Shown piece by piece: positions 7,276-59,839 of a stretch of DNA of 64,000 nucleotides; position 1 is the first letter of the stretch; every line of letters begins with the position of its first letter. The DNA lies in contig NC_092671.1 in assembly GCF_964355755.1 (NCBI RefSeq), forward strand, positions 33,800,304 through 33,864,303, in the 5' to 3' direction. The position numbers and the translations under genes were made by a program. Under the pieces are notes generated by a model, which had not been told where the DNA came from, did not search any database, and saw only the letters and a list, made by a program, of their open reading frames with translations. The DNA comes from Antedon mediterranea. Taxonomy: Eukaryota; Animalia; Echinodermata.

Positions 7276-7769
7276 GCCTTTCTTGCATGGCAATACCATA
7301 ACCTGCTACTATTCTGGTTGCCGAGTGGATTTTATATTGAATATAGTCTATAACGTTACAAATTGTCTCCAGATAGGAACCTAATGACAGCGATATCGTG
7401 TATTAAAAGTACTTAATACAGTCAGATAGGTCTCTGGTAGACTTTCGACAGTCTTCCACGTTGAGTGTAATAACAGCTACAGAATCGGGTGTTTGGATGC
7501 ACTTCTTTTATTATGTTTCCTGTTTTCAAATGATATATTATCAGCATTCCATCAGAAACAGATACATTTTGCTTCTTGTTAAAAGGCATTGATATAATGT
7601 GAAATTATATTTTTTATTGTTATAAGGGGATATTAGGGATTACCGGGAAAAAAAGTTGAGCAGGGTTCAATTATACCAAACGCTGGTTTGCGACGAAGGC
7701 GTACTCTCATACCTCAGGTAGGTTTACTATTGGAATTATAACTTGACTTTATGTACAGGTTTAACTTAC

Positions 7770-8214
7770 TTTCAGCGTTTATTTTCTTAAGAGGTCCTGA
7801 AACAATTAAACAAAAACATAGGAACATTTTGAAATTGATATTCATGTTAACATTAGGATCAGTAAAAAATTATTAGGTTTGCGGGTTTGGTTATCAAATG
7901 TTATCTACTTTTTAGCTAGTTCATTATCCCGAACGAGCTGTTATAATCTGAAAAGGAGTCAGTAATTAGGTATTTTACAGGAGTATTGATTGTAGTTGAA
8001 CATGGTGCATACGACTTTCATTATTATAGTTCATGTTGTGTTTTGACTTATTTTTGTTTGAATTAAGATATTGTGATTTATGTGACACATCCTTTCAAGA
8101 GTTTCTTCTTTCTTGTGGACATACTTCGGTTTGGTTTTTATTACTGTACTTAGATAATATTATATGCGTATTTGTGTAACTTACTTCCACCGTTTATTTC
8201 CATAATAGAAGACT
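7770..8214 (-). CDS. Two tandem phase-1 microexons (30 nt at 8185-8214, 27 nt at 7770-7796)
   Basis: ttacag|AGTCTTCTATTATGGAAATAAACGGTGGAA|gtaagt and tttcag|GACCTCTTAAGAAAATAAACGCTGAAA|gtaagt translate as xSSIMEINGG-RPLKKINAE. The flanking intron blocks are homologous (7891 vs 8270), with an inverted third copy at ~8640-8820. Confidence 0.55.
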
Positions 8215-11118: not shown

Positions 11119-13879
11119 TTAAGGCCATGGAAAAGCGGTGCAGAGTCTATCTATAAAAAACCTACCCATTTTGAGATTTCAATACAAAACGATCAAAACA
11201 CTTTAAAATATTAAATGCTTGTTCAAAATATAAAAAGTATGTATTTTGCAATTATTTAAGTCGTTTCCATTGAAAATCTTTTTTTGTTCACTAAAAATAG
11301 ATATTCGTCAAAGCGCTTTTGTAAACAAACCGCTAACCCAAATGACGTCATGTTTGGTACCTATATCTGTTCAAAAGTAATAATTTATGTCAGCTACAAT
11401 AATTGTTAACAACCTCTTTACCTTTTTAAAAATAAATGTAGCCAGTGGAAATTGGTATGGTGTTAGGTTGCTAACATTTCTACCAAGATAAAAACACGCT
11501 CCTTGATTACAAACAGCAAGGCTTCCACTGTAGTTTGAACTTCTCAACATTTTGTGAATATTTGAGAATTTAATCGTTATTTTCTTCATTTATTTAAAGA
11601 AAAAAAGATACAATATAATATTATGTACCGCATAGTGTAAATATTTTCAAGTTATTGAGTAAATGGCGACTTTTGTCAGCAGACACGTTGATTGGGAAGG
11701 CTACGGTAGGCCCAGCTAATCGGCGTCGCTATTTCATTGTTAATTTTCTAAAGATAAAAAAAATCCACATTTATTTCTTAAGTTAAGTTATTTTCTTATT
11801 TTTAGTGCATGCATCATAGTAAATGTAAATCATGTTACACAGTAATCAAATTCACTTTGTATTATGGACGGCGTTCTCTACCAGAGATTGATGTTCGGAG
11901 TCACAACGTGCTATTACTTGACTGGCATTTGAAATGAACAACCGTGCTTTGAACAGTTCATAATTTATGCCATATGATCTTTTATCGCGTGTTTTATAAC
12001 GAAGACTTATACAAAGGCATCATTGCTACATTCACACCATATTACAGCACGTTAAACAAAGGAAAATCATAACAACAACTGAACGTCTTCCATTCCGTGA
12101 AACGGAACAAGTGTGAATGTAGCTTTATAAACATGTATATGCCTATAAAATGTTCTTTGATGCAATAATAATCAGTATAAGAAAATCTTAACTAATGATG
12201 ATGGAATTGCGAGTACAGCATATGAAAATAAAGATATATATACTGTAGCTACAGAAGCATTTTAATTGTCAATTAATATAACACTATTAATAAACAACAA
12301 CAAGCATGATTATGTTATTATTTCTAGTTGGTTTGGCAACAAATGACTATTAAAATTAAATTACATTTAAAAAACATTGGTTGAATCTACAAAAATGAAC
12401 GCTCGGAAAGTTACACCACTATAAAACCGCTATATATCGAAAACAAAATGTATATGCTTAAACCATTGTTTTCTTTAGAATTTTAAATGACAAAAATGTA
12501 ATAGGAATTTAAAAGAATTATTGTACTCTGATACCAGTGTTATAGCCAGGGATGTGCATAACTGCATAGAACGAATACAGAGAGACACAATTATTATTAC
12601 TATTAACTACAGTATCTTTTGAGTTTATTATTCAGTTTCTTTTGTAATATTTATTATATTGTATCATATGTATACTATAATGTGAGTGGAAAACAATAAA
12701 GTAAATCAAACAAAATAAATGACAAAATGTTAATGTAAACAATGCGCTTATCGTCAATTGTTTACCTAAAGATAAAGAGATTTATCTACGAATGATTCAA
12801 TGTAAGTCAACTCCTTAGTAACCATCTAAAAATACAAGTGAAACATCAATTAATTGATTGATACAAAGAGTAGAAAAGAGAAAAGATTGGTTTGGTTAAG
12901 TTTATAATTCAGTGTAATAACTACTATTAACATAGGCCTAACTGTTGGTTATAATCACCTTCTTGCTTACTGCTTATGTCATGATCTGAAATAAAATAAT
13001 TAGAGTATCAACAACGTATTCAGTAATTTGTGAGCAGATCTTGGTCCTCCAATCCCGCTAACCACCAATCGTTCCCAGTAAAACACAAACATTGACATAC
13101 ATAAACGTAAAACAGTATAGTTTTTAGATTACTTATTATTATTCTATATAATATAAACATTTTCTAGTTGGCCTGTTGGCTTCTGATTAAAAAATAAATT
13201 GATATCAATCAATTTACCTCAGACTCTGTAATTTATATCAACAAAAAGTATGGAAGTCAATGAGTTTTTGGTTGATTTTTTTTGTTTATTTTGTTTTTAT
13301 TTTTTTATGGACGTGATTAAATTATTGAAATTGCGAAATGGTATATTCTTTTAAATTTTTGTTAATCTTCATTTTCATGTTTTTGGGGAACAATACATCT
13401 TTAACCTTAGAACATAAGCACAGCAAAATGGCAGTTTTTGTCTTGAGTAAGTCCCACTTATAAATTGTCCGGTCTATCTCTACTAACCTTCATCTCGACG
13501 AATTCTGCTGCGATGCTCTGAAATGTAATAAAATAAGAATATCTAATAATTACTTTGGTGAAATATAATAGTCATGGGAGATGAATATAAGAGGATGACC
13601 TAGTGTTGTAATTTTAGAAATTAACAATAATTTAAACACATCGTAAAATCTATGAGAATAATTATGATTAATACAGTTATGAACAAAAATATATAGCTGA
13701 TAAGTATTGGTATCTTTAAGTGACATTAGATTAAATTCCTTACAAAAGGACCCATATTAGCTTTAAAAGAAGATTTTAAATTACTAGTGGGTGTACCCGA
13801 ATGGTCCTCGAAAACATGACCAACGCCTCTGGAAATTGAAGCCCGGGTGACACCTATGCATATGACTGATGAGTAATTG

Positions 13880-14120
13880 GTACTAATCATAAGAATATAA
13901 GATGCAAATAATATAATTGTAAAGAACAGTATGGTTAAGAACCATCACATCCTTAGGGTTATGTAAAATCAGAACTTCATAGGAAGTATGTTCAGCAAAA
14001 CGCTATTATGTAAATGGTTTTTAACTCAATGCAGGGCCCCAATGGAAATCAGTTTTTAACTGTTTGGGCTAACCCTGAGTAAACAAAGTAATAATAATAA
14101 TATTATATTATTATATTATC
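13880..14120 (+). mobile_element. LINE (L2/CR1-group) 3' tail fragment inside the Helitron
   Basis: cagggcccc...atcag...ctg...aaccctg stem-loop followed by (AAT)n; similar to the tail at 43437-43520. Confidence 0.5.
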
Positions 14121-15024
14121 TGAAAAGTTACACACAAGAGGAAGCCGTTAATAGGGGTCATCAATCACTGAAACAGTCTCTAGCGTGACCGTGCCAAGAG
14201 ATTAAAAGCATAGTATATCAAAAAAGTGGGTGACAGTGAGCGGGGCTTTAACATTTGTATCACAATATATCATGACAAAAGCATCTTCTTAATTTTTTAA
14301 TAACAAACTGATCAAATAACAACTTCCGTAGCCTACTTATATATCGGTCGTAGTAGACACCATTTATAATTATAAATAGAGCAAGCAACAGAAATAATCG
14401 ATAATATAAACAGTAAATATGTTTCCCTGGTAGGCCTACCAGGGCTCCTATAGTAACATTTAATCGCACCTAAATTTCATTAAATGGTTAATAAATAGCA
14501 TAAATAATTAGTTCAATTAGCCTCCTATAGTAACATTGAATCGCACCTAAATTTGATAAAATGATTATTAAAAGCATAAATATTTAGTAAAATTAAAATT
14601 ACTAAAACAAATTGTATTTCACGTAAAGTAAATGCCTTTAATCAATATAATTGATTAGTTGAATATCTAAAAAAAATTAAATTGCAGTAGGCCTAGTTCA
14701 CGATACGTTGAACCACTAAAATATTTGTATTTAATATTGAATGTCGCCACCAACGGCCATTTGCCGGAAGTGACGGACCCGGAAGCAAGTTGAACAACAG
14801 CGCGAGTGTGTAAAAGTAACCCTGTGATATCCACAAATTTCGATAGGTAACGCGAAATGTTGTCGTTGTAAAAGAAAACAATGGAACAATAGCGTAGTAC
14901 TGAAAACTAATGTTATCAAATCTACGTTTCGCGGTACATCTGAGATAGATAAGGTAGGTATCCAAGGCGGAGATTTATACCGAAGTGTTTCCATTGTGCT
15001 CGCCTATGTCAGAAATAACCATAA

Positions 15025-16507
15025 TTAGGTTATATGCATGATATGCATATAACCTCTTGATTCTGTCAGAATCTTTATTTATTTATTTATTTATTTATTT
15101 ATTCTTTCCTTAGCACTATTTGTCCGTCAATTATCTTGATATCAGTTTCATGTAACTAAGTCAATTTTTCAGAGTATATTCCTTATGGCCAGGAATCGAT
15201 GTGGTTATGTTTTCACGGTGCGCAATCAAACATTACGTGGTCTACGCGCGATTTAATGAAATCACGTTTGTAATCATAACTTCACAAGCATGAATCATTT
15301 TTAAACAAAATTTGGTACTCATAAATTTCAGGTTATATTTCATCATATGGCAATACAATTACGTGCGTAGCGCATATAACGCATGCGTACGCGCACTTAA
15401 AATGTTCAAAATTGTCAGAATTTATTTTCGATGAAATTAGAGTACGTTTCAGGCAATTTTAAGCGTTTAAAAAATTACCATGAGTGCGCAGATTTTTGCA
15501 CGCGCACTGCGCGTCAAACGTTAATGCGCACTTTTTTTGTCCGATTACTGTTGTATAACCTTTCTTTAATAATATCATCAAATTTTATTCACTTTTCAAC
15601 GCCAAACAGCGTTATACGAGCACGTCTAAAGTGACAGGCTACGCACGTGTAAGTTAACAAAATGGTGAAAATATGCTAAATTTTAAAATTAATATATATC
15701 GTTAGAATGCTCGGGAACACCTATTTTTTATTTCATTTTCTTGAAGTGTATGTATCATATGTATGATTTATTATGAAATTAGGAGAAAAAAAGTTGATTA
15801 AGTCATCATTAATGGCATATTAAATTTAAAAAAATTAATTATGACAATCAATCAAATTATAACATTTTCTTAGGCCGAAATAACAAACTTAACATTAACT
15901 TTCTTCCTTCAAAAGTTCATATATTAAAGTTAAAAGTATGTAGTTTGACAGTGCATCATTTGTTTACATTTTAAAGATGTCATCATAGTAAAAAATTATA
16001 ATTCATTTCGGTATGTAATAATCTATTTGCATCAAAGTGGTTACTGCATAGTAAATACTCGGAGGAATGTTTCTACAACTTTTAGTCAGTTGTGTATGGC
16101 TCGATGGTCTGTGCTCGTGTCTATGGCATTCAAGGTACCGAGATCGAGTCTCACCTTGGGAAACGAAATAAGATTTTTTTTTATTATCCGTATTGTTTGT
16201 TCAAATTTATTTCTTAGTGTATAGATTATACACATGATTTATAATGAAATCTAGATAAAAATTAACTTATGTCTTTATTATTATGTAACAACAAATGTGG
16301 TTTATGACATTATACGCATATGGATCTTTGATCGGATTGTGATACCGGCTATGGTGTTCGCGTTAGCAAGGTCCTATCATATATTATAAATAATTAAAGA
16401 TTCTGAGAAAATCAATCAATCAATATATCTTTTAAAAATCAATTATCTTTATTTAAAAATCAATGCATATAACCTATAATTCGTCATAGTGACGAATTAA
16501 ATCTAGT
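15025..16507 (+). mobile_element. Helentron-associated element (HINE/DINE-1-like), family 2
   Basis: 5' hairpin aggttatatgcat-gat-atgcatataacct, 3' subTIR atgcatataacct (16463), hairpin aattcgtca-tag-tgacgaatt, then CTAG. Inserted in TT and carries (TTTA)n. Confidence 0.8.
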
Positions 16508-16519
16508 TTATATATAGAT

Positions 16520-16850
16520 ACGTATGATTCTTTATTGAAGCAATGTTAATTTAGTGAGATTTGATTGAAAAGTATTACCCCAGACTACATTAGAATGTGA
16601 AAAATAAGGAAGAACAAGATAATTATTTAAAATACGAAGAATAATAATTTACAGGAACTAAACGTTTAATTCTGTTGATTATTCCTTTAGATATTTTAGT
16701 CACCAAATCATTGATATTGCATTTCCAAGTTAACTGAACATCAATGAAAACACCGAGAAATGTTGTTTGTTCTACACTTTGAATGTCATCATTGTTAAGG
16801 ACAATTTTAAAATTATCTACATCATCAGCCTTTTTCTTCTTATTACTAAA
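16520..16850 (-). pseudogene. LINE RT C-terminal relic in the tandem unit (continues 13530-13783; also ~19000-19560 and ~20920-21480)
   Basis: Translates VEQTTFLGVFID.QLTWK...SNVVWGN...LQ.RIIR...NYNTRSS, typical of L2/CR1-group ORF2 ends. Confidence 0.8.
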
Positions 16851-17706
16851 ATAATAGAATATAATTACATTTCTTTGAATTTAATGTAATATGTTATTAA
16901 TATAATGTAATTGGTTGTTATAATGTAATTGGGTGTTAATAATGTAATTGATTTTCAATAACGATCGAAAGTTAAATGTTTAAACAATGTTATTAACTTT
17001 AATTATTTAATTATCTATTTCAAAACAATATATTAGAAAGAAATTTCATTTATGTTGGTTATGATATTATTATACAATTCAATTAGAATCACAAAGAAGA
17101 TCTAGAAGTCTGCAGAGAGCAGACGAACATTTCAATGAACGTAAATTTTAGTGTTGTGATCGAAATTTAAATGTTATGACAAAGAGTAGAAAAGAGAAAA
17201 GATTGGTTTGGTTAAGTTCATAACTCTGTGTAATAACTACTATCAACATAACTGTTGGTTATAATCACCTTCTTGCTTACTGCTTATGTCATGATCTGAA
17301 ATAAAACAATTAGAGTATCAAAAACGTATACAGTAATTTGTGAGCAGATCTTGGTCCTCCAATTCCGCTAACCACCAATCGTTCCAAGTAAAACACAAAC
17401 ATTGACATACATAAACGTAAAACAATATAGTATTTAGATTACATATTATTATTCTATATAATATAAACATTTTGTAGTTGGCCTGTTGGCCTCTGATTTA
17501 AAAATAAATTGATATCAATCATAGGGCTGGAACAAGAATTATAGATGAATACAAAGGTATATTTACTCACCTGCCATTTGCCCAAAAACAATTTATAAGA
17601 ATAAAATAAAACATTACTATAAACAGTTACTACTAATGTGCTCATCACAACACATACCTTCTTGAATGTTGTGTTATACACCTATTCTAAAAGTAGCCGT
17701 TAAAAA

Positions 17707-18508
17707 ACAAGGCCAACAGCCATTAAGTCGCGTGCTACAATGCATAGTGATACCGGACCGACAGACAAACAGACCGACAGACAGACAGACCGACAGACAG
17801 ACGGACCGACCGACATAGTGAACTATACTGACCGAAATTACTGAACATGTTTAAAAATGTTGAAATGTTTAAAAACATTTATATTTTTTTAATTTACACG
17901 TGCGTAGCGTGTCACTTTTGACGTGCTCGTATAACGTAATTTCGAGTTGAAAAGTAAGTCAAGAAAACAGAAATCGGGCAAAAAGAGTGCGCAATAACAT
18001 TTAACGCGCAGTGCGCGCGCAAAAATCTGCGCACTCATGGCAATTTTGTAAGCGCTTAAAATTGCCTGAAACGTACTCTTATTTCATCGAAAATAAATTT
18101 TGAAAATTTTAAGCGCGCGTACGCATGCGTTACATGCGCTACGCACGTAATTGTATTGCCATATGATGATTTATGCCCTGAAATTTATGAGTACCAAATT
18201 TTATTTAATTGTGAATTCATGGTTGTTAAGATATGATTACAAACGTGATTTCGTTAAATCGTACGTAGACCGCGTAATTTTTTATTGCGCACCGTGAAAA
18301 CATAACCACATCGATTCCTGGCCATAAGGAATATTCTGTGAAAAATTGACTTAGCTAGATTAAACTGATATCAAGATAAGGTCATAAAGCGATAAAACGC
18401 ATAGTGATACCGGACCGACAGACAGACAGACAGACAGACCGACAGACAGACCGACAGACAGACCGACCGACCGACATAGTGAACTATAGAGTCGCTTCCA
18501 CGCGACTA
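17707..18508 (-). mobile_element. HINE/DINE-1-like element, family 1, copy 1
   Basis: SubTIRs agtcgcgtg/cacgcgact, terminal hairpin agtcgc-gtggaa-gcgact and two (GTCY)n tracts. Inserted in an A/T run; the empty site is at 20431-20460. Confidence 0.88.
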
Positions 18509-18644
18509 AAAACAAGGACAAATCACGTGTCTTTCTAAACTAGCAATTCAATCAATCAATTCTAACAAAAAAATCCAGAAATATAATGAGATAATAGTAA
18601 TCATTAAATGGAGTTTGTCGATTTGTTCCTAAAATATTATTTAC

Positions 18645-20322
18645 CTCAAAATCTGTAATTTATATCAACAAAAAGTATAGAAGTCAATGAGTTTTTGGTT
18701 TATTTTTTTGTTTATTTTGTTTTCTTTTATTATGAACGTAATTAAATGATTGAAACTGCGAAATGGTATATTCTTTTTTTTTTATTAATCTTCATTTTCA
18801 TGTTTTTTGGGGGACAATTCATCTTTACCTTAGAACATAAGAACAGCAAAATGTCTGTTTTTGTCTTGAGTAAGTCCCATTTTATGTAGAAAAATTCTGG
18901 TCGGTAAACTTTTAAATTGTCTGGTCTATCTCTACTAACCTTCATCTCGACGAATTCTGCTTCCACGCTCTGAAATGTAATAAAATAATAATATCTGATA
19001 GTTACTTTGGTGAAATATAGTGTTTTGGGAGATGACTATAAGAGGATGACCTAGTGTTGTAATTATAGAAATTAACAATAATTTAAACATACCGTAAAAT
19101 CTATGAGGATAATTATGATTAATACAGTTATTAACAAAAATATATAGCTGATAAGTATTGATATCTTTAAGGGACATAAGATTAAGTTCCTTACAGAAGG
19201 ACCCGTATTAGCTTTAAAAGAAGATTTTGAAATTATACGTATGATTCTTTATTGAAGCAATGTTAATTTAGTGACATTTTGATTGAAAAGCATTACCCCA
19301 GACTACATTAGAATGTGAAAAATAAGGAAGAACAAGAGAATTATATAAAGTACGAAGAATAATAATTTACAGGAACTAAATATTTAATTCTGTTGATTAT
19401 TCCTTTAGATATTTTAGTCACCAAATCATTGATATTGTATTTCCAAGTTAACTGATCATCATGAAAACACCGAGACATTTTGTTTGTTCTACTCTTTGGA
19501 TGTCATCATTGTTAAGTACAATTTTAAAATTATCTACATCATCAGCCTTATTCTTCTTATTACTAAATATAATATAATTACATTACTTTGAATTTAATGA
19601 TAATCTATTTATAGCCTTAAACCATTCACAAATATAATGTAATTGGTTATTAATATTATGTAATTGGTTGTTATAATGCAATTGGGTGTTAAATGTAATT
19701 GATTTTCAATAACGATCGAAAGTTAAATGTTTAAACAATGTTGTTAACTTTAATTATTTAATTATCTATTTCAAAACAATATATTAGAAAGAAATTTCAT
19801 TTCTGTTGGTTTTGATATTATTATACAATTCAATTAGAATCACACAGAAGATCTAGAAGTCTGCAGAGAGCAGACAAACATTTCAATGAACGTACATTTT
19901 AGTGTTGTGATCGTAATTTAAATGTTATGACAAAGAGTAGAAAAGAGAAAAGATTGGTTTGGTTAAGTTTATAACTCTATGTAATAACTACTATCAACAT
20001 AACTGTTGGTTATAATCACCTTCTTGCTTACTGCTTATGTCATGATCTGAAATAAAACAATTAGAGTATCAACAACGTATACAGTAATTTGTGAGCAGAT
20101 CTTGGTCCTCCAATCCCGCTAACCACAAATCGTTCCAAGTAAAACACAAACATTGACAAACATAAACCTAAAATAGTATAGTTTTTAGATTACATATTAT
20201 TATTCTATATAATATAAACATTTTCTAGTTGGCCTGTTGGTTTCTGATTAAAAAATAAATTGATATCAATCATATGGCCGGAACACGAATTATAGATGAA
20301 TACAAAAGTATATTTACTCACC
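18645..20322 (-). pseudogene. Representative microexon set of the tandem unit: signal-peptide-like exon end (20322), 15 nt (20032-20046), 30 nt (18940-18969), 8 nt (18645-18652)
   Basis: The 15-, 30- and 8-nt exons all have canonical AG/GT sites and compatible phases, giving ...FGQMA-DHDIS-KRGSRIRRDE-DFE. The signal-like exon carries different indels in each copy. Confidence 0.6.
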
Positions 20323-23300
20323 TGCCATTTGCCCAAAAACAATTTAAGAATAAAATAAAATATTATTAAAAACACTTATTCATCACAACACATACCTTCT
20401 TGAATGTTGTGTTATACACCTATTCTAAAAGTAGCCGTTAAAAAAAACAAGGACAAATCCCGTGTCTTTCTAAACTAGCGATTCAATCAATCAATTCTCC
20501 AAAAAAATTCCAGAAATATAATGAGATAATAGTAATCATTGTTCCTAAAATATTATTTACCTCAAAATCTGTAATTTATATCAACAAAAAGTATGGAAGT
20601 CAATGAGTTTTTGGTTGATTTTTTTTGTTTATTTTGTTTTTTTTTATTATGGACGTAATTAAATTATTGAAACTGCGAAATGGTATATTCTTTTTTTTGT
20701 ATTAATCTTCATTTTCATGTTTTTTGGGGGACAATTCATCTTTACCTTAGAACATAAGAACAGCAAAATGTCTGTTTTTGTCTTGAGTAAGTCCCATTTT
20801 ATGTAGAAAAATTCTAGTCGGTAAACTTATAAATTGTCTGGTCTATCTCTACTAACCTTCATCTCGACGAATTCTGCTGCCACGCTCTGAAATGTAATAA
20901 AATAATAATATCTGATAGTTACTTTGGTGAAATATAGTGTTTTGGGAGATGACTATAAGAGGATGACCTAGTGTTGTAATTATAGAAATTAACATTAATT
21001 TAAACATACCGTAAAATCTATGAGGATAATTATGATTAATACAGTTATTAACAAAAATATATAGCTGATAAGTATTGATATCTTTAAGTGACATAAGATT
21101 AAGTTCCTTACAGAAGGACCCGTATTAGCTTTAAAAGAAGATTTTGAAATTATACGTATGATTCTTTATTGAAGCAATGTTAATTTAGTGACATTTGATT
21201 GAAAAGCATTACCCCAGACTACATTAGAATGTGAAAAATAAGGAAGAACAAGAGAATTATATAAAGTACGAAGAATAATAATTTACAGGAACTAAAAGTT
21301 TAATTCTGTTGATTATTCCTTTAGATATTTTAGTCACCAAATCATTGATATTGTATTTTCAAGTTAACTGATCATCATGAAAACACCGAGACATTTTGTT
21401 TGTTCTACTCTTTGGATGTCATCATTGTTAAGTACAATTTTAAAATTATCTACATCATCAGTCTTCTTCTTCTTATTACTAAATATAATATAATTACATT
21501 ACCTTGAATTTAATGATAATCTATTTATAGCCTTAAACCATTCACAAATATAATGTAATTGGTTATTAATATTATGTAATTGGTTGTTATAATGTAATTG
21601 GGTGTTAATAATGTAGTTGATTTTCAATACCTATTGAAAGTTAAATGTTGTTTAAACAATGTTATTTACTTTAATTATTTAATTATCTATTTCAAAACAA
21701 TATATTTGAAAGAAATTTCATTTCTGTTGGTTATGATATTATTATAAAATTCAATTAGAATCACACAGAAGATCTAGAAGTCTGCAGAGAGCAGACGAAC
21801 AGTTCAATGAACGTACATTTTAGTGTTGTGATCGAAATTTAAATGTTATGACAAAGAGTAGAAAAGAGAAAAGATTGGTTTGGTTAAGTTTATAACTCTG
21901 TGTAATAACTACTATCAACATAACTGTTGGTTATAATCACCTTCTTGCTTACTGCTTATGTCATGATCTGAAATAAAACAATTAGAGTATCAACAACGTA
22001 TACAGTAATTTGTGAGCAGATCTTGGTCCTCCAATCCCGCTAACCACCAATCGTTCCAAGTAAAACACAAACATTGACATACATAAACCTAAAATAGTAT
22101 AGTTTTTAGATTACATATTATTATTCTATATTATATATAAACATTTTCTAGTTGGCCTGTTGGTTTCTGATTAAAAAATAAATTGATATCAATCATAGGG
22201 CCGGAACACGAATTATAGATGAATACAAACGTATATTTACTCACCTGCCATTTGCCCAAAAACAATTTCAGAATAAAATAAAATATTATTAAAAACACTT
22301 ACTCATCACAACACATACCTTCTTGATATTGTTTTATACACCTATTCTAAAAGTAGCCGTAAAAAAAAAAAAACAAGGACAAATCACGTGTCTTTCTAAA
22401 CTGGCGATTCAATCAATCAATTCTCAAAAAAAATCCAGAAATATAATGAGATAATAGTAATCAGTAAATGGAGTTTGTCGATTTGTTCCTAATAGTTCTT
22501 TTGCTTTGCTACTACAGACAGATAAAACATGGTTTAAAAACACCGCAATTATGTAGCTATTCGTATATAGACAGACTCGCAGTAGCTAGATAGCTTGCGA
22601 TAGTCAGTTAGACTCTATCTACTTACAGCTGCACAATTACTGATTTAATTGTTTTAACCTCATACCAGAGTGGCTATATTCAATGTTTTGTTGAACACGC
22701 CATTTTAATGTAATATAATAGTTATTTATTTTCCCTGATTTGACAAATCGAAAAATGGATCGAAAAAAAATATTTACATCAAAATATGTAATTTATATCA
22801 ACAAAAAGTATGGAATTCAATGCGTTTTTGTTTAATTTATTTGTTTATATTTTTGTTTTTATTTTTGATTAATTTATTAAAACTGCGAAATGGTATATTC
22901 TTTTTTTTTTTATTAATCTTCATTTTCATGTGCCCCACCTCATTGATTACGTAGTGTATGGGTGTGGAGTGTACATTTAAGACATAAAGAAAATAGAGAT
23001 ACGATACATCATTTGTCATCTTTGTATTTTAGTTCTTATTATTATATTGACCAAAACATGGACCAAAGCAAAACTTTTACGCTGTTTTAAAATGTCTGTA
23101 TGTATTACATTTTCAGTGAATACATTTATTTTATTTCAAAACAGAAGTGTTAACATACAAATACAGTAACGGATACAAATACAATAAATAATTGAACCAT
23201 ACATTTGAAATATTATTTCAGCACATACGCAATTTATCAAAATTAGGCCTATTTACTACAATATGTACGGGAGTTACACACATTCATCCCGACGATTTCT

Positions 23301-23438
23301 GTTACGAGCTGAAAAAGTATACATGATAACTTTACGTGAAAGATGGGGCCTATAAATCACTCAAGATTATAAACGTATCTTGATATTTTATTCGCATATT
23401 TTTCTTGAAAAGATGAATTTGTAAGAAATTTTACTTAA

Positions 23439-24004: not shown

Positions 24005-24991
24005 TTAAAATTAGTTAAGATCTTATCGATAATATTTTGCATAAACAGGATTCGACAAAATATTTAAAGAAAAATCATCCCCTGAAAAAAATTATAAACA
24101 ATTTTGGTTTTGTTTATGCTGTTTTTGTCACATAATATTTATTCATTTCGACCAAAATATGGGTTGGATAAAAATCATTTACCTCTAAACAAACTGTAAT
24201 TTAAAGCAAAACCAATGGGTTTTTGGTTGAATTTACTTTGTTTATTTATAGATGAACAATGTTGGTGTGTTTTTTCTACGGAAGTGAATAACTTGATTAA
24301 AAATTAAAAAATGGCACCTTAGAAGTCTGATTTTAATCTTCATTTTTCATGGGGATAATACATCTTATAATTTACATAAATAATGTTACAACAAAGAAGA
24401 ATACTATTATACCTGGAGGGTTTTTAGATTTACTACAGTTATTCGCTTATTCCAAAAAAATATATTGACAAAATGTCGCTGGATTTAACAAGAAGTCCAA
24501 TGGCTTCCAGTTGAATATTTTTCTTTGAATTACTGTTTTAGGCCTATAGGCCTATGTAATCAATAACTTATAGTAATAAATTGTAAATCAAAAAGATTAG
24601 TACATTTGATACTAACTTACCATCGTTATCTTGGCACTGTCCAAATTCAGCCTGAAATAAAAATAAGACTAGAAACACAACGACCAACGTTTGCATTCTC
24701 CTGTAAAAAAGGGTATATTCGTTGTTATTGAAAAAGTTTCAACCTGGATCGAATGTGATAATTGTGAAAATGAAAATATTTATTAAGACACATTTTCTAT
24801 TATTACTTTGATGTTGCTATTGCTATTGCTATATATGCAGTTGCCCTAACCATTAGACCACTGGGGCTTTCATGGTATTGTTCAAACTCGATTGGATAGC
24901 GACTCTTTAACATTCTCGGCGTGGTACGGCGGAACAGCACTGGTCCTCAGTTGTACGCACGCGCAACAGAGATCAAATTGATACGCCCTCA

Positions 24992-40336: not shown

Positions 40337-40371
<35 letters not shown>

Positions 40372-40384
40372 CGACAGACAGACC

Positions 40385-40423
<39 letters not shown>

Positions 40424-46240: not shown

Positions 46241-46344
46241 GTATTGGTTTATTTGCCTTCCTAAAGATGTCTTTGGCTTCGAAGAGTGAGGGTGGAAACG
46301 GACTTAGTTCATATTTCATTACATCGTCTAGAGAGATTTGTCCT

Positions 46345-52152: not shown

Positions 52153-55100
52153 CAGCACTATCAGGAGAGTCTTTTATAGCGATATTTTTTGCTTTTTGAC
52201 AATCCGCCAGGATAGTGTTCTGCGCTTTTTCTCTGCTTGTTGTTGTTCTATGTAATATATGCTTTTTGTATTGTTTTTGTATTATTTTTTCTGGATAATA
52301 AATGAATATGAATATGAATATGAATAGCAAATGTTCATAATATCATGCTAAAACCAAATAATATAATACAAAACGTAAATAGTGTGTTACACTTTTCACA
52401 TAATATATTAGAAATATATAAAATATAAAATATTTTGCTACATTAATGTTTAAGACCATACACTTTTATTATATTTAGAATGAAACACGCAAGCAGTCTG
52501 TATATTTTTTTATTTATTTTTCAACAATGAGTAAACACAACAAAAGCATTAACCTTTATAATTTACGATATATTCACGTTATACCTTGTCTTCCGATACG
52601 AATCTGTTAGTGACAATGATAACATGAAAAAGTATATAATAATTTAGACTTGTATCTCATTGCCTTGCAATAATCAGTTAATATATATCTAGTGACAGCT
52701 GCAGACTCCGATTCCAATTGTTGAATAGTATTGAACGCATACATCGAGAAGTTAACACTAAAATAATACAATAATGTTATAGAAGAAGAAGAAGAATTAG
52801 TAAGTGCCTTGTTTCGGTAGTTAATTCATGTGAAGTTTGTGAAGTAAGGGCTATGACGTAATACTATTGACAGCAACCATTAACACATCTTCTACCATGA
52901 CAACCGGCTTCTGAATTGCAGGCGTGACAGATGATAGTATCCGGTGGTACTAAACATAAACATTATTAATACGTTATCTATGATATATCATGGAATTATA
53001 ATAGATGGGTGTGGAGTAAAGGTGTGTTAAACCATTATCGCCAATACATGAAATCACTCACGTAAAATACAACACACTCATACTGTAGTACGTTACAAAT
53101 ATAATTATTTGTAATTATCAACATTATTAATGTCACAGACGATATATCAAAAAAGGAAGGAAAGAGAGTAAGATCAACATAATAAATAAAAGGAGAAATT
53201 AAACAAGTCTGTATTTTTGGGTTTTGGGTATGGGTTTTGTAATTAGTTCGATTCAGTCTGTCAATGTAAATATAAACATTCCAAAAAAGTGGCACATTTG
53301 TCTTTTTTTTTTACCCAGTTAGTTATACGGAAACATTAAGTGTATACAATTAATCATAATAAGCTTATAATAAAGAATGTCCTCATAATAATTGAATACT
53401 ACCCGTGGTTCTTACCTTGCTCTCCAGATGATTCTTCGAAGTCTATATAAAAAAAAAACGCCCATACAATTTTACATTACTTTTACTGTAACATATTTCG
53501 TATAAATTTTCATTTATATATTAGAAGATAATAATGAATAATAACTTTGAAATATAAATTATAGGTCGAAACAAGTTTGTTCTTGCACAGCAAACTATTA
53601 GCCATTATCGGACCGAGTTTTTGGTTTTAGCTATCCGGCAAAACCTCTGGTCTAATAGCCACAGGTCCAGTGCGCATATTTTCCGTACTCGTGTGCGGAT
53701 ATAATTGCACCCATATTGCAAAGTGCAAGTCAGTGGTGCGAGAAGATTTAAATGTTCGTAAACAATTATTTTAAGCGGCGGATCGAGCTACTCGAGGAAG
53801 AAGATGCAATTCGTGCCGAATAAGTTAGTATAGAAACGCTTTTCATTGAATAACAAAATACCTCCCATTGACTATGTCGATTGCAATCCTCGCATCATAC
53901 AATAATTGATTTAATCTTGGCCTAGGTCGTCTTAGGCCACTTTTTTGTAGATAAACTATAAATAAATACTATAAGTAATATTTCTGTGCAGAATATAAAT
54001 ATCTGCTAAAACGCAGCATTCACTTTTAGTTAAGGAATTTAATGGCAACAGATTTATATAAAAGTTTTATATGGATTTATTGTCAAATAATCATTTAGTA
54101 TTGTATTACTGCACATTAATGACTATATTAATGTATAATACCCGATTTCTTGACTTTACTGTACCTTTTTCGAAAACTGAAAAAAGAAAGAAAAACAAAG
54201 TTAAATTATTTTGATTGTAAACTATTTCCCATCTTTTTCGACTTCTAAATTGACGTTTCAGAAACATTTATGTATAGGCTTTGTTGTATCATATTACACA
54301 TTTTATGTAAATACGAGAACGTGATTTTTCAAAATGGCAACACGTAACTAGCCGATTATCCAAAATGTTAAAATTGTTATAATATTACACCTCTATGCAA
54401 TATCTGTATAATAAATGATGTACAAAAATAGTTTAAACTGTGATGTGGATGTATAACAGCTGTAAACCAGTGTAATTATGCATAAAATAAAAAGTTATTT
54501 ATAAGCAAATATTACCACCAATAGTCTATGTCCTAGACGGATATTTTGGTAAACATGGCGTATCATACCTATACGGGAATATTTCTCGTTACAACAAATA
54601 ATAAATATGTTCGGAACTCTAAAAACGTTAAAAAACAATAACTACAGATAGGGCCGTGTTTCCTCAGCCAAAAATGAACCGTTAATTAACCGATACAAAT
54701 TAACTGATAATTAACCGATGACATTCTTGTGAAAACGGGGTTAACCTATTCCGCTCGAGAAAAATTAACCGATAATATTTCATTCAAACCAGATAATTAT
54801 CGGATAAATGTGTTAACCTTTGACCTGAAGGACAAATTGTGGCGTTGTGATCGGTCACTTGGTTATTCAGTAATGTTTGATCATGCGCGCTATATTTATT
54901 TTAATTAATATCTGATTGGTTAAAAAATTAACCGATCACTTTGTTATGGCTGGGGAGAAACACGGCATAAATTATTGGAAAATCTGAAAACCTACTTTTG
55001 TCGGTATTCGCATCTACAGAAATTAGTACCATAGCGACAACAAGGAGAACAGCAATTGTAATCTTCATGTTTCTAAAATAAACAAAAACAAGTTTTACTT

Positions 55101-58100
55101 TTGTATGAACAAGAACATAAATCAGATTATGATGAACAGTAATCTACTGTAGAGTCGAGTTGAGTATTATACAAGTAATGAATGTTTGTGTGTGTAATGG
55201 TACAAATAATGGCATTTGGTGAATGAGGAAAGGTTATATATCAACTCGTCTTCGCCTCGTTGATATATAACCTTTAATCATTCACCAAATGCCATCATTT
55301 GTACCATTCAACGAATATAAAAACATTTATTATTTCTTTTATATAACATCTAATAGATTCCTGTCATTTTAATTAAATAAAAGGTAGGCCTAGAAACGTT
55401 TATTTTAAGTAATTTAACATGCTATAAATACTTCATTCACTACAGGTATTGTACCTACCCAATAAAAAATCGCAAAAGTTATTCCAGTTTTTAAAAATGG
55501 AAACCCTATCAATAATTATATACCTATTTACATTTTTCGAAAACAATAAACTTTTGGTAAGCTCATTTCTTGACTTATCTAAAGCGTTTGATGTGACGAA
55601 TCATTTAATATTACTAGATAAACTCTATGGCATTAGAGGCATTGCACTTGAATGGTTTAAGATTTATTTTAGTGAATACATGAACATCTAAATTGGACAG
55701 GTCATCAAAATTATATAGCAAATACGATTTGCAATAGTATTGATGTAATAAATAAACTCCCTCACAATAGTTTAATACAACTTTATAACACACTTGTACT
55801 CCCCCACCTACCATCTTGATAACGTTTATTATTTCTAAACCAGAATCTAAGGCAAAATATTATGTTAAAATGTATGTTAAATAAAATATATATATATTTA
55901 TATAATATATACAATATTTTTTCAGATTACGCCATTATTAGTAGGCCTAGGAGCAGTAATATCGTCCGTTACAAACGGGCCTTAAGAAAATGGTGATACT
56001 TACCGTGTGTTCGAGCCAACGAATTCAGTGGAATGAAGCTTAGTTTGTTTATGAAACAGTATAATTGTTTTTCAGATAGGAAGAGTTTTTTTTTATTATA
56101 CACACCTAATTTCCGAAAACAATTTGCCAAGCCTTTATGTATAGCTGTACTTTTAAAATTTCCATCATAGTTTATGAAATACTGTAATCTTTGTCATCAC
56201 ATTATAGCCTACGTATTATAATTAAATAAAGAAAATGATGAAAACGATGCGAAGCTTGTGATAAATCAAAAATATTCAAATTTCGAACAAAAACGGACAC
56301 TAAATATCATAGGTAGTTTTCGCACGAGCAATTTAACGGATGGCGTCAACATTCTACTCATTTGCATATTAGCGTACTTCAGTCTTTTTTATTTCGCTTA
56401 ATTAAAAACATAAATTCAAATTGAAAATTTGTTTTCTTAATCATATTGCAAGAATTTAATTATTCTTTTTTTGTTTTTCGTAATGCCTGCGCACGCGCAG
56501 ATCGATTTAAAGTGGTGGGAGATTGTACGTTGCATTTTGGAAATAGCGTTAAAGTTAACGTTTACGTGCTAGTAACTCGTAACTCCCTCTTTATTAATCT
56601 TCTAAAGTAAACGGCTTCCATCTGAAATCAATTTCGAATCAATGGGAATTCAAAAAGGATTCTCGAATTTTGGGACCACATGGTAGAAAAGTTATAGACG
56701 GAGGACACTATGATGTATAACTTTATCAGAATCAGAAAACACTGACCGTGCTATAGAATCATTTACTAGAACATTATATAGAACTTGTACCATGTAATAG
56801 CACAATTATTGAACGACACGTGGTACAAACTTAATCCATCACATTATAAGGATACACGTCACTGTCAGGGGTGGATTGCTATAAAACAGTCTTAACTGGT
56901 GGTCTTAACTCCCCGATTAAAGCCGGCTTTATCAGATAGACGGTCTTATTAAAGTCTCTCCTGATAGACCATTGCTATAAAACAGTCTTGGATAAGACCA
57001 CGTAAAGTAACAAATTGAGGGCGTACTTTGCGCGTAGAATACCAAATAAGTTAATGTTCGTCACGCTTGTTCAATTCACAATCATAAACAGTACGTACAT
57101 TTCTACGCGAGAAAATCCATTCTAGGCCTATATAAGAATAAAATCACCGTAATTTTTTGATTTAACACTTAAAACTCGTTCAATTGGTTGTCTTTGACGA
57201 TACATATACGTAAAAGCAACAAAAAGAGAGGTTTAAGACTGTTTTAAGACTCGAGTAGGCTTTAATTTTAAAGACCGTTTACAGGTTAGACCGCGGCATA
57301 GCAATGGTCTATAAATAAAGACTACTTGCTACGTCACGAATTATAGCCGGCTAAGCGCTAAGACCGTTTATAGACCGCTTATAGCAATCCGCCCCAGGTG
57401 TGTTATAACTGGTCATGTAATACATAAGATGATGGTAACTTAATGTACGCTAATAGTCAGCTAAATGTTTACACAAACATGTTTGAACTGTGTTCGCCTA
57501 TCTCATAATTAAACATAATGTGTATGTAGATGATGGCGTATTACGTTGATTGCTATTTGTTATTAGTAATTAGACTGTTCCCTTAAAATTAATGATCCAC
57601 TGTGGTTTGTTGAGCATTTTCTAATGCCAATATTATATCATGTAAGTCATGTATATTTTGCAGAAGTCATTAGAAAAAAAATAAACACACCTAATTTCCG
57701 AATAATATTTATGATGAAGTGCTTAAAATTTTAAATAAGATTTGTAAAAGAGCATAATTATATGTGCCCACAGATGGTTCTCGAATACGCAGTAATTTCA
57801 GCGTAAACAAAAATGTTTTTTTTTAATGTACGTAGGCCTACCGCAGGAGTGTACCGTACTATAATAGTTATTGTCGTTTACAAAAACGAATAAATACACA
57901 CGATGATTTGTGTAGTCAACTAAAATTAGCACCATGGGAATTACTTCCGAAAGTTGTCACAAAATGAGTCAACATTTTTGATTTGGACTCATTTAAACAA
58001 ACCCAATTTGTGTTTTGTGTTTAACATTAGGGTTGAGGGATAGGGAAGAGGATATTGGTACAAAGAAGAACAATTTTTAAATATATTTTTTATCTACTCA

Positions 58101-59839
58101 GTAACGAATCTTTTTCATGTTTTATAGGCCTATAATTAATATACCACTTGATACAGTAACACATTTGCGATATAATACTTTGTTAAAACTGTCACTGTCA
58201 TAGTAGATTGAAATAGCATAGCACATGTAACGATACACCACTACAACGTTTATATTTTTGTAATTATTAATTAATACAAACGTTGAGAAGCACCTGTTAG
58301 TAATACATTTTATTTGTATATTGTGCGTTTATATATCTAACAGTAGGGCCTACTCACACTAACACAAATACGTTTATTTATACATGTGTGTTATATCTAA
58401 CAGTAGCCTACCGAAAAATTTCGATTAAAATGGCGACCTAAAATGTTTAATACGTATTTATACAGTAATGTCCAAGTATTGCAATACTATATCTATATAG
58501 ATTTTAGGTTAATTCCCCAATGGCCAATACATTTACCGACAGCTGGTGGTACTTGTGTTAAACGAAATAGTTATATTGGAATGTTCCATTCATCGGAAAT
58601 CAATACATTTGTATAAACGTATATTAAATCTATCAAATTAGTATTTTTTTAAAGAAAATCGGCCAGTCTTCAACATTATGATGCTGTACTCGAGCTGTTT
58701 AACCGGTTTCAGCTATTAAAAACAATTATTGTAGGAGGAGATAGGCAAATTCGAAGCATCCTCGTATTATTGTGTGTGGGTGTGGAACCAAGCAGATTTG
58801 GGTTTCTATATAATTATATAATAAGTTGATAGTGCGTATGATTTATGTAACTTACTTTCAACGTGTATACCCTTCGGAGGTCCTGCAACAAAGATCAGAA
58901 GGGCATGAACGGTTTATAATTATTTATTCAAATTTAGATTTGCTAGTTCATCATATTATTGACAATTTTTCCATAACAGTGGTTTGGTTAGATTTTCACG
59001 TCGATTAAGTGTCCACTGCTACCCTACTACGTCATATTAATGATATGTGCATGCACTAGGCGACTGGTACGTCGACTGGCAAATTTGAGCGCTTGTTCAG
59101 TGACATTTTGACGTTCTCTCTGGACACGAGTACCAATGGATGTATGACGTCATAACACTGAAAAAGTTTATCCAAAAACCGTGGCCGAGAATCTCACGAT
59201 GGTTTTCTGATTTTCAGCCAAATATATTTGCAAACTGTGAATTATTGATTTGTATTGGTTAATTTAAATAAAGCTTTTAATATACAGGTTATAGCCTTAA
59301 CATCTAAAAGTCCCTATTATTACTGTGGTCCAGAATTGACGGATTTTTTTTTTTTGCAATTGGTTGCAATGCAAAACATAGACGACAGTATTAATTTTTT
59401 TGATATTAGTTATTGATATATTTAAGGTAGACTTTTAGCAATTGTGGCATAAGATACGTCATAAATGCTGATTTAAAAGATGATGCAATTAATTAATGTT
59501 CGGACGTGGACCAAAGGGGCAGTTATTGTATTAATTTAGTATCAAAATTGAGATCTAGGCCTAATGGACATCATTAGGCCTAGAATAGTCGCTCTTCTTG
59601 ATCAATAAGAAGCTCCAACTTTTAGATTAAAAAAAAGTGTAAAGAATGTGAAATATGGATAGTACCGTAATGTCTTAAACTAAAAAATAATAATTTAAAA
59701 TCTTTCTAGATTTGTAAACAAAATGTGTACAATAATGTACTGTAAATGTTTTTCTTGGTGGGATGATGTAATATTCTTTTACCGAATGTGAGATCATAAG
59801 CTTAATGCAGCAATACTTTACTTACAATTTACTTGACAT
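52153..59839 (-). CDS. Secreted-precursor gene A (microexon family); exons 59839-59826, 55072-54996, 53442-53416, 52603-52585, 52247-52153; 3' end not found
   Basis: Splices in frame to [77 protein letters not shown](G). All splice sites are AG/GT, the signal peptide ends VDA, and there is an RxxR site. Confidence 0.68.
54652..54967. mobile_element. Harbinger/Tourist-like MITE
   Basis: TIR gccgtgtttc/gaaacacggc with internal ttaaccg repeats; flanked by TAG and TAA. Confidence 0.55.
55490..55680 (+). pseudogene. LINE RT fragment
   Basis: [35 protein letters not shown]. Confidence 0.75.
56869..57394. mobile_element. Harbinger-type MITE with CAG target duplication
   Basis: CAG|gggtggattgctataa...ttatagcaatccgccc|CAG. 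Confidence 0.75.
57760..58765 (-). mobile_element. Truncated Helitron copy related to 24992-26159
   Basis: Reverse-complement similarity to 25270-26120. Confidence 0.75.
58856..58882 (-). other. Orphan 27-nt microexon homologous to 7770-7796
   Basis: ttgcag|GACCTCCGAAGGGTATACACGTTGAAA|gtaagt; the flanks resemble 8151-8184 and 7911-7930. Confidence 0.5.

What the first reader, a model, noticed from the sequence alone, without database searches (positions are those of the whole stretch)
7400..59839. Hidden cluster of microexon-built secreted-precursor genes threaded between transposons
Seen: two minus-strand loci 33 kb apart share one architecture. Each has a 14-nt first coding exon (ATGTCAAGTAAATT|gtaagt = MSSKL; ATGGCTGCTAAACT|gtaagt = MAAKL), a phase-2 intron, a 77-80 nt signal-peptide exon ending in phase 1, and then short exons. 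A third set in the tandem array has a signal-like exon sharing M.TLVV...FGQ with gene B. The ORF track does not show these spliced models. Established: R-X-(K/R)-R and RxxR are furin/PC sites, and microexon families of secreted proteins exist (schistosome MEGs). Inference: this is a fast-evolving, lineage-specific family of secreted peptides (immune, toxin, gamete or biomineral function) with conserved exon phases and divergent mature regions. I do not recognise any homologue.
Basis: partly seen in the sequence, partly recalled or inferred. Interest (0 to 1): 0.88.

Follow-up and report, generated by a model that had tools for sequence, protein, structure and literature searches.

The report
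Feather-star microexon secreted peptide genes
Two neighbouring feather-star genes are spliced from very short exons: one, which our database searches did not find, encodes a predicted secreted six-cysteine peptide that likely serves in defence, and the other, already listed as an uncharacterised protein, repeats two tiny exons to make a precursor that would be cut into several short charged peptides.

Summary
Two real minus-strand genes, not a three-gene family. Gene B (26960-12815) matches RefSeq Antedon mediterranea XP_071941526-529 letter for letter: first exon, signal exon, seven alternating 27- and 30-nt phase-1 exons, three R-x-R-R sites. The run holds three variants. No homologue was found. 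Junction 54996/53442 is not direct, and 59826/55072 is unconfirmed. A and B share exon phases and a similar first exon (14 of 25, p about 0.003), but their signal exons show no similarity, so common descent is open. Best reading: A is a defence-type prepro cysteine-rich peptide; B works like a schistosome micro-exon gene (MEG) and is likely convertase-cut. Function is inferred, not shown.

The parts
59826..59839 (-). Gene A: candidate first coding exon (M-S-S-K-L, phase 2); splice to 55072 unconfirmed
   Evidence: In sequence; 14 of 25 flanking letters shared with gene B's first exon, p=0.0033, the best of 10 pairs; no X1 cover
56004..56070 (-). Gene A: rival non-coding first exon (GTAAGT donor after 56004; 5' end approximate)
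   Evidence: Ends in G, as the one X1 contig crossing the 55072 acceptor implies; X1 depth 0 in this bin too; unresolved
54996..55072 (-). Gene A: 77-nt signal-peptide exon with its own in-frame ATG at 55068
   Evidence: Covered and spliced in X1; hydrophobic 20-residue leader, GRAVY 2.31
54165..54176 (-). Gene A: 12-nt phase-1 microexon (start of the acidic spacer)
   Evidence: Its letters stand between the two sides of joint 53444/54996 in X1, depth 135; an 18-nt version stands in another contig, depth 277.5
53416..53442 (-). Gene A: 27-nt phase-1 microexon (acidic, F-E-E-S-S-G-E)
   Evidence: Joints on both sides in X1; strong splice sites
52507..52949 (-). Gene A: terminal exon; coding part 52949-52864 gives C-x2-C-x5-C-x4-C-x3-CC and a stop; AATAAA at 52518
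   Evidence: GT..AG joint 52949/53416 in 2 X1 contigs, depth 138.8; a 447-nt X1 contig lies on 52507-52951; X1 depth 0 in the intron bins 52976-53339; translation
26932..26960 (-).
   Evidence: 10 of 10 residues match P0046; exact chain
24621..24700 (-). Gene B: 80-nt signal-peptide exon
   Evidence: 26 of 26 residues match RefSeq
21941..21967 (-). Gene B: 27-nt microexon H, copy 1 (H-D-I-S-S-K-Q-E)
   Evidence: Exact exon chain of P0048; 0 of 27 columns vary among 4 copies against 37 of 303 in flanks, p=0.035
20857..20886 (-). Gene B: 30-nt microexon R, copy 1 (carries R-I-R-R)
20020..20046 (-). Gene B: microexon H, copy 2
18940..18969 (-). Gene B: microexon R, copy 2
17269..17295 (-). Gene B: microexon H, copy 3; skipped alone in isoform X2
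   Evidence: P0047 has a single exact chain, which lacks this exon
13488..13517 (-). Gene B: microexon R, copy 3 (variant)
12959..12985 (-). Gene B: microexon H, copy 4
12629..12825 (-). Gene B: terminal exon (D-G-Y, stop ending at 12815; AATAAA at 12655 and 12629)
   Evidence: All four RefSeq isoforms end here
12863..22492 (.). Tandem array of about 2-kb units (one H exon, one R exon and LINE relics), 87-96% identical; lies inside gene B
   Evidence: Self-comparison, exon mapping
23282..23308 (-). Older copy of exon R with a weak GTGTGT donor; not used in the RefSeq isoforms
   Evidence: in none of the exact chains
58856..58882 (-). Orphan 27-nt exon-like cassette inside gene A's presumed first intron
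   Evidence: Homologous to the cassettes at 8214 and 7796 (0 of 200 shuffles reach the scores); joined to 59826 it gives a stop
8185..8214 (-). Orphan 30-nt exon-like cassette, downstream of gene B's end
7770..7796 (-). Orphan 27-nt exon-like cassette, downstream of gene B's end
   Evidence: 20 of 27 letters identical to 58882-58856

Best explanation
These are two separate spliced feather-star genes for predicted secreted precursors: gene A encodes a six-cysteine peptide that likely acts in defence, and gene B encodes a charged repeat protein that would be cut by furin-type enzymes into several short peptides. Gene A. Shown: the exon chain from the signal exon to the last exon, the cysteine spacing, and three transcript variants in one run. 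Inferred: a 20-residue signal peptide is removed; a 17-residue acidic spacer built from the end of the signal exon and two microexons serves as a pro-region and is trimmed by a non-furin protease, or stays on; the last 28 residues fold with three disulfides round a small beta-hairpin, like the disulfide-directed hairpin core of knottins; the peptide binds a target on microbes or predators, such as a protease or an ion channel. It probably does not lyse membranes, because it is not cationic. Gene B. Shown as a RefSeq model that matches the window exactly: ten coding exons and four isoforms. Inferred: tandem duplication of a 2-kb two-exon unit added one R-x-R-R site and one 19-residue peptide each time, and exon skipping changes how many are made. 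Phase-1 symmetric exons let both genes gain, lose or resize modules without shifting the frame. Odds: gene structures about 0.9; defence role of A about 0.45; convertase processing of B about 0.65; common ancestry of A and B about 0.45.
For: GT-AG joints and exon-only cover in X1, with none of these joints in the DNA-like run X3, which covers 30 of 30 bins. Exact match of 4 of 4 RefSeq isoforms to window exon chains. Peptide properties: spacer 6 acidic against 2 basic residues; Cys spacing 2,5,4,3,0. Single-sequence AlphaFold2 model: pLDDT 74-81 over the cysteine part, with a bridge, a short helical turn and a two-strand hairpin. Variation sits in the spacer and just before the first cysteine: 12-nt and 18-nt versions of one microexon, and a last exon three codons shorter that keeps C-x-x-C. 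Eight listed X1 differences on the last exon all fall in the 3' UTR (8 of its 10 were listed). The same layout (signal, 16-residue prosequence, six cysteines) is described for sea-urchin strongylocin (PMC4805251, passages), and signal, pro-region and hypervariable six-cysteine exon for mussel MgCRP-I (PMC4558851, passages). Gene B's mature part is 60% charged, has three R-x-R-R sites and is predicted to be coil throughout.
Against: No call tests function. Gene A's cysteine domain is net neutral (2 acidic, 2 basic, 2 His; whole mature pI 4.8), unlike the cationic echinoderm antimicrobial peptides in PMC4805251. It has no dibasic site at the spacer's end. Its spacing fails the knottin consensus at 2 of 5 loops, and disulfide pairing was not read from the model (pTM 0.34; the query held two intron-derived cysteines). 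No homologue supports any role. The RNA evidence is one run, kept as contigs, whose RNA status the tool calls a guess; tissue unknown. Gene B was not tested with reads here. Isoforms X3 and X4 each fit several exon chains and could be mapping artefacts of identical repeats. B's predicted peptides lack amidation signals and look like spacers. Conservation of exon R against its flanks is not significant (p=0.14).
Confidence: 0.5

Rival explanations
1. One family: A and B descend from one secreted-precursor gene, kept the first exon and the phase 2/1/1 skeleton, and replaced the rest.
For: First exons share 14 of 25 flanking letters, p=0.0033, the only low value among 10 pairs, and read I-T-M-x-x-K-L in both. 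Both signal exons go from phase 2 to phase 1 and are 77 and 80 nt. The genes are neighbours on one strand.
Against: Signal exons show no DNA similarity (174 of 200 shuffles as high) and no protein alignment. In a wider local test the first exons are only borderline (14 of 200 shuffles as high). The 59826/55072 splice is unconfirmed and one contig argues against it. The third member does not exist.
Confidence: 0.45
2. Signalling peptides: B is a multi-copy neuropeptide or hormone precursor (its C-terminal acidic D-G-Y could be sulfated, from recalled knowledge of sulfation motifs), and A is a cystine-rich hormone or pheromone.
For: B meets the two criteria used for predicted crinoid neuropeptide precursors, a signal peptide and peptides bounded by dibasic sites (PMC9793003, section 36).
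Against: Neither gene is among the precursors in that paper's main text or its 7 supplements held as text (0 hits for six motifs in the supplements; three of the motifs also 0 in the main text). No amidation glycine precedes B's cleavage sites. Several divergent variants of A in one run fit a conserved receptor ligand less well.
Confidence: 0.22
3. Material role: B stays uncut as a disordered block-charged protein in mucus, adhesive, secretory granules or calcite, and A is a metal-binding or cross-linking matrix peptide.
For: B is 60% charged with alternating acidic and basic blocks and is predicted disordered. A has C-x-x-C plus two histidines and an acidic, serine-containing spacer.
Against: B's basic blocks are exact R-x-R-R motifs, kept in all three copies and as R-N-R-R in the older copy at 23308. 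An even number of cysteines behind a signal peptide usually forms disulfides (established knowledge).
Confidence: 0.2
4. Artefact: chance splice-like motifs and transposon debris in an AT-rich genome.
For: The window is rich in repeats, and the array units contain LINE relics. The third gene and one junction did fail.
Against: Shuffle control, spliced contigs, exact RefSeq models.
Confidence: 0.02

Closest known systems
RefSeq XP_071941526-XP_071941529, uncharacterized protein, Antedon mediterranea (isoforms X1-X4)
   Same: Gene B itself: every isoform is reproduced exactly by window exons.
   Different: No function or processing is given by the source. Gene A was not found among proteins of 25-83 residues or among 50%-identity representatives.
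Schistosome micro-exon genes (MEGs; PMC4350168 and bioRxiv 10.1101/2023.06.21.545858, passages read)
   Same: Gene B: signal peptide, most of the coding sequence in tiny symmetric exons, isoforms by exon skipping, predicted disorder, transposon-rich setting.
   Different: MEGs are reported as restricted to flatworms; no sequence link was found. B's microexons are only two kinds, multiplied by recent 2-kb tandem duplication, and carry furin-type sites. Gene A has only 20% of its coding sequence in microexons.
Mussel MgCRP-I cysteine-rich peptides (PMC4558851, passages read)
   Same: Gene A: signal, short pro-region, six-cysteine domain and 3' UTR on the last exon, variable mature part.
   Different: MgCRP-I has C-C-CC-C-C, a dibasic pro-site and four exons without microexons; gene A has C-C-C-C-CC, no dibasic pro-site, and a pro-region built largely of microexons.
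Sea-urchin strongylocins (PMC4805251, passages read)
   Same: Echinoderm; signal of about 20 residues, prosequence of 16-17, six cysteines.
   Different: Strongylocins are cationic and 5.6-5.8 kDa (EeStrongylocin 2 carries bromo-tryptophan); gene A's domain is neutral, 2.9 kDa and has no Trp. No sequence match was found.
Conotoxin as25a, cysteine framework XXV (PMC4278219, passage read); knottin and disulfide-directed hairpin folds (PMC4942781, passages read)
   Same: Same order of cysteines, C-C-C-C-CC; a predicted small disulfide-held hairpin.
   Different: No sequence similarity found (0 Pfam families for gene A's exons); spacing fails the knottin consensus; no venom apparatus is known in feather stars (recalled). 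At most a convergent resemblance.

Membership tests
Schistosome MEG superfamily | Most of the coding region in very small symmetric exons | tested here: met
   Gene B: 198 of 318 coding nt (62%) in symmetric 27/30-nt exons, 75% in exons of 36 nt or less. Gene A does not meet it: 39 of 198 nt, 20%.
Schistosome MEG superfamily | Alternative splicing of microexons gives near-identical isoforms | tested here: inconclusive
   RefSeq X2 skips one exon with a single exact chain; X3 and X4 fit 4 and 2 chains. No reads were laid on gene B.
Schistosome MEG superfamily | Signal peptide | tested here: inconclusive
   Hydrophobic leaders (best 11-residue mean 3.47 and 3.67; helix 2-29 in the model). SignalP is not available here.
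Schistosome MEG superfamily | Flatworm lineage and sequence homology to MEG families | tested here: not met
   The only 2 hits among 10 candidates were the Antedon isoforms; no Pfam family reached its cut-off. B works like a MEG but is not a member.
Inhibitor cystine knot (ICK) | Spacing CX3-7CX3-8CX0-7CX1-4CX4-13C (PMC4942781) | tested here: not met
   Gene A spacing is 2,5,4,3,0: the first and last loops are too short.
Inhibitor cystine knot (ICK) | Disulfides C1-C4, C2-C5, C3-C6 forming a knot | not testable with these tools
   The model output gives no disulfide list; fold searches returned 0 matches for this very small model.
MgCRP-I | Cysteine array C-C-CC-C-C | tested here: not met
   C-C-C-C-CC in gene A.
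MgCRP-I | Dibasic convertase site ending the pro-region | tested here: not met
   The only dibasic pair in gene A is inside the cysteine domain.
Strongylocins | Signal peptide, short prosequence, six cysteines | tested here: met
   20 + 17 + 28 residues with six Cys; both boundaries are my placement.
Strongylocins | Cationic mature peptide of 5.6-5.8 kDa, with homology | tested here: not met
   pI 6.9 and 2.9 kDa for the Cys domain, pI 4.8 and 4.9 kDa with the spacer; no homologue.
Conotoxin framework XXV | Cysteine order C-C-C-C-CC | tested here: met
   against PMC4278219. The order alone is a descriptor and does not show homology.
Conotoxin framework XXV | Conotoxin superfamily signal sequence or homology; activity on animal receptors | tested here: not met
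   0 Pfam families for the signal and Cys exons. Activity was not tested.
[quoted passage not shown] | Signal peptide plus peptides bounded by dibasic sites | tested here: met
   Gene B has three R-x-R-R sites. Gene A does not meet it.
[quoted passage not shown] | Identity with a listed precursor | tested here: not met

The most novel reading that the evidence does not exclude
Gene A founds an undescribed crinoid family of defence peptides with a new six-cysteine scaffold, and it shares one ancestral secretion cassette with gene B. Feather stars would then have evolved, independently of blood flukes, a MEG-like system in which phase-1 microexons are duplicated, resized and skipped to diversify secreted effectors.
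Probability: 0.25. Interest if true: 0.72.

Novelty: new variant of a known kind. Interest (0 to 1): 0.5.

Why it matters
A 2025 review counts 17 echinoderm antimicrobial peptides from sea stars, sea urchins and sea cucumbers, and lists none from crinoids (PMC12466427, passage in section 3.5). Gene A is a spliced candidate missing from the protein collections searched, 28 residues long in its cysteine domain and so easy to synthesise and test. Its cysteine spacing was not found in print by one search. MEG architecture is described as restricted to flatworms (PMC4350168); gene B shows the same build in a free-living deuterostome and preserves how it arose, by tandem copying of a two-exon unit. 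If function turns out ordinary, what remains is an annotation gain: one missed small gene and one uncharacterised repeat precursor.

Tried and rejected
No whole genome is held, so the genome-wide paralogue scan could not be run. The run search listed no holder on record as RNA. My first reading, that all four runs were DNA, was wrong: repeat-derived rows hid X1's joints, which one search showed. Both are repeat proteins whose scores sum over 19 and 13 stretches: an apparent translated tandem repeat, and a 4398-residue cysteine-repeat protein with PF11617 that looks bacterial. I rejected both as homologues, though the second shows that C-x2-C-x5-C-x4-C is a recurring small module. Atlas hits for the Cys exon were all under 0.9 (best 0.87; cyclotide and toxin clusters at 0.83-0.77), leads only. 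Pfam 0 of 3, PDB sequences 0, Foldseek 0, VIA-align 0: uninformative at this size. For gene B, four Pfam rows were far below cut-off and three PDB rows had E of about 3: rejected. My own models of gene B that included exon 23308 or ran on to 8214, 7796 and 7519 are not in RefSeq and were dropped. The reading frame at 7425-7604 had no usable Atlas hit. Reading the introns upstream of 8214 and 7796 as signal peptides is not persuasive: the intron above validated exon 20886 also reads open and hydrophobic, and the shared CTAAT-like letters fit a branch point. The Gypsy protein search gave only a marine-invertebrate hint. The metagenome locus search could not take so short a query.

Full report
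Setting. The window is AT-rich animal DNA (24-41% GC per kb) full of repeats: a Gypsy element at 1-3875, a Harbinger-like transposase frame at 41540-42559, an element with long inverted ends at 44576-51143, and LINE relics (element names from my reading of the translations). No whole genome is held. Earlier scan notes called this genome a feather star (unchecked). Exact identity of gene B with RefSeq proteins named Antedon mediterranea confirms that species or a very close one.

Is the signal more than chance? With generic splice-site matrices of my own, 8 of 9 strong minus-strand exon candidates of 9-45 nt were symmetric and open in phase 1. Thirty block shuffles gave a mean of 0.37 and a maximum of 2, and the plus strand gave 0 of 1. 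Three of the eight are copies of one exon; six independent ones still exceed every shuffle. The ATG-N11-GTRAG pattern alone is unremarkable (5 minus, 2 plus).

Run X1, which the tool marks as RNA only by guess, was laid on 52430-55155 beside the DNA-like run X3. X1 has depth 113 along 52507-52951, 0 in the four intron bins 52976-53339, and joints that X3 lacks. One joint is 52949/53416 with GT-AG ends (2 contigs, depth 138.8). Another is 53444/54996 with ten letters between, which are the 12-nt exon 54176-54165 less the two letters it shares with the acceptor (depth 135). X3 covers all 30 bins. So the chain signal exon, 12 nt, 27 nt, cysteine exon is spliced. This is one run of one study, held as contigs: it gives no strand, level or tissue, and 15 of 18 joints and 12 of 181 loose ends were shown.

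X1 also holds variants: a contig at depth 277.5 with an 18-nt version of the first microexon, a loose end showing a last exon three codons shorter before an intact C-x-x-C, and a third form at depth 4.2. DNA runs carry a second version of this region about 7-8% different: 25 differences in 342 letters at depth 150.6 in X2, against 273-364 for five other X2 pieces in unique-looking parts (two further X2 pieces lie in repeats at depth 2010 and 3894), and 23 differences with 18 gaps at depth 10.1 beside an identical piece at 13.8 in X3. That looks like a divergent allele more than an extra locus, but the tool warns that depth is no copy number, so allele versus paralogue stays open.

The first exon of A is unresolved. 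The signal exon has its own in-frame ATG with A at -3. Against it, the only contig seen to cross the acceptor aligns one letter further, to a G, while that exon ends in T; a GTAAGT donor after 56004 ends in G. That contig is shallow and 6 letters in 74 different, so it may be another copy. A 27-nt exon-like cassette at 58882-58856 also lies in between and would close the M-S-S-K-L frame with a stop.

Predicted product of A from the internal ATG: 65 residues, namely a 20-residue hydrophobic leader, a 17-residue acidic spacer (6 D/E, 2 K) and a 28-residue cysteine domain with net charge near zero; there is no R-x-x-R site. A single-sequence AlphaFold2 model of the last-exon frame gave pLDDT 74-81 over the cysteine part, with a bridge, a short helical turn and a two-strand hairpin closing on the final cysteines (pTM 0.34; two intron-derived cysteines were in the query). 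That arrangement recalls the disulfide-directed hairpin core of knottins (my inference), but the spacing fails the knottin consensus in PMC4942781 at two of five loops. No homologue was found: 2 repeat-inflated hits among 1.84 billion representatives, no candidate for the signal-exon frame among proteins of 25-83 residues, Pfam 0 of 3, PDB 0, Atlas best 0.87. These were searches with single exons of 25-32 real residues, so remote relatives could be missed.

Gene B. A search with the signal-exon frame returned 2 hits among 10 candidates, both RefSeq A. mediterranea uncharacterised proteins; their clusters hold four isoforms. Trying all subsets of eight candidate internal exons, X1 (105 residues) is reproduced by exactly one chain: 26960-26932, 24700-24621, then 21967, 20886, 20046, 18969, 17295, 13517, 12985, and a last exon at 12825. 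X2 has one chain, which skips 17295; X3 and X4 fit 4 and 2 chains. The tandem array of about 2-kb units is therefore the inside of gene B. Of 318 coding letters, 62% lie in symmetric 27- and 30-nt exons and 75% in exons of 36 nt or less. The 27-nt exon is invariant in 4 copies against 37 of 303 variable flank columns (p=0.035); the 30-nt exon is not significantly conserved (3 of 30 against 94 of 481, p=0.14). The mature part is 60% charged, has three R-x-R-R sites that would release pieces of 23, 19, 19 and 14 residues, and is predicted to be coil. I laid no reads here; support for B is the RefSeq model, whose own evidence I did not see.

The third gene. The block before the GTGAGT donors at 22245, 20322 and 17571 reads M-S-T-L-V-V in one copy only, owing to an 11-letter insertion. 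F-G-Q is in a different frame with stops upstream in all three, and no fitting acceptor was found. Rejected. What remains unexplained are three homologous exon-like cassettes at 58882, 8214 and 7796 (0 of 200 shuffles reach their scores). They have good splice sites but belong to neither confirmed chain; they may be 5' UTR exons, exons of a further gene, or relics.

Are A and B one family? They share strand, neighbourhood, the phase pattern and perhaps the first exon. Their signal exons do not align as DNA (174 of 200 shuffles as high) or as protein, and their mature parts have nothing in common. I put common descent at about 0.45.

How it most likely works. Shown: splicing of A from the signal exon onward, and the identity of B with the RefSeq models. 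Inferred: both enter the secretory path; A yields a three-disulfide peptide behind an acidic pro-region and acts on microbes or predators by binding a target, since it is not cationic; B is cut by furin-type convertases (motif from established knowledge) into repeated charged peptides whose number is set by duplication and skipping. Symmetric phase-1 exons keep the frame through these changes. Rivals are signalling peptides (0.22) and a material role (0.2).

Comparison with print. Passages read: MgCRP-I (PMC4558851), strongylocins and centrocins (PMC4805251), the echinoderm section of a 2025 review (PMC12466427), ICK and hairpin folds (PMC4942781; bioRxiv 10.1101/485722), MEGs (PMC4350168; bioRxiv 10.1101/2023.06.21.545858), conotoxin framework XXV (PMC4278219). 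For crinoid neuropeptides (PMC9793003) I read section 36 whole and passages, and searched the 7 supplements held as text: 0 hits for six motifs; figures are not held, long cells are cut, and one store of files gave no answer. Ten library searches turned up no description of either gene. No paper held all of micro-exon, echinoderm, secreted, alternative splicing and tandem. The exact cysteine spacing was in none of the 20 listed of 30 papers. The library lacks most subscription journals, and bioRxiv supplements were closed.

Verdict. Real, partly as described. Gene A is an unannotated, spliced precursor of a cysteine-rich peptide with a spacing I could not match. Gene B is an annotated but uncharacterised gene that works like a MEG without being one. 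New variant of known kinds; interest 0.5.

Noticed in passing
window 58856-58882, 8185-8214, 7770-7796 (minus): Three homologous exon-like cassettes with branch-point-like motif, acceptor and GTAAGT donor, 50 kb apart, in neither confirmed gene; the frames upstream of the two at 8.2 and 7.8 kb also read as Met-led hydrophobic stretches.
   Followed up: partly
window 53177-53477 and 54822-55165: DNA runs hold a second version 7-8% different from the window at about half depth around gene A's coding exons, while a 774-letter piece at 59232-60006 differs by about 1%: possibly old, divergent alleles.
   Followed up: partly
window 22245, 20322, 17571 (minus): Each array unit has a T-rich tract ending in CAG followed at once by GTGAGT, 74-87 letters below a GTATGT donor; could be a short intron, a recursive splice site or a decayed exon.
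   Followed up: no
window 9522-10043, 35460-35644, 43519-43792: A 520-letter segment has a 94-96% identical second copy split in two, about 8 kb apart, with transposon sequence between.
   Followed up: no
window 44576-51143: A 6.5-kb element with about 340-letter inverted ends (96% identical), internal inverted duplications and decayed cysteine-rich transposase-like frames, inserted into a LINE fragment.
   Followed up: no
window 37846-43035: Harbinger-like element: transposase frame at 41540-42559 (minus), partner frame on the plus strand near 40857-41249, subterminal 22-24-letter repeats at both ends.
   Followed up: no
window 29588-35296: Large inverted duplication (about 2.5-kb arms, 81-91% identical) built of LTR-like pieces related to 5428-6551.
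   Followed up: no
window 1-3875 (plus): Gypsy pol in three successive frames with a long Pro/Thr-rich insert between RNase H and integrase; named relatives are from a limpet and a sea cucumber.
   Followed up: partly
window 36972-36986 (minus): A 15-nt symmetric exon candidate with strong splice sites, open in phase 1, in what looks like transposon sequence; probably chance.
   Followed up: no
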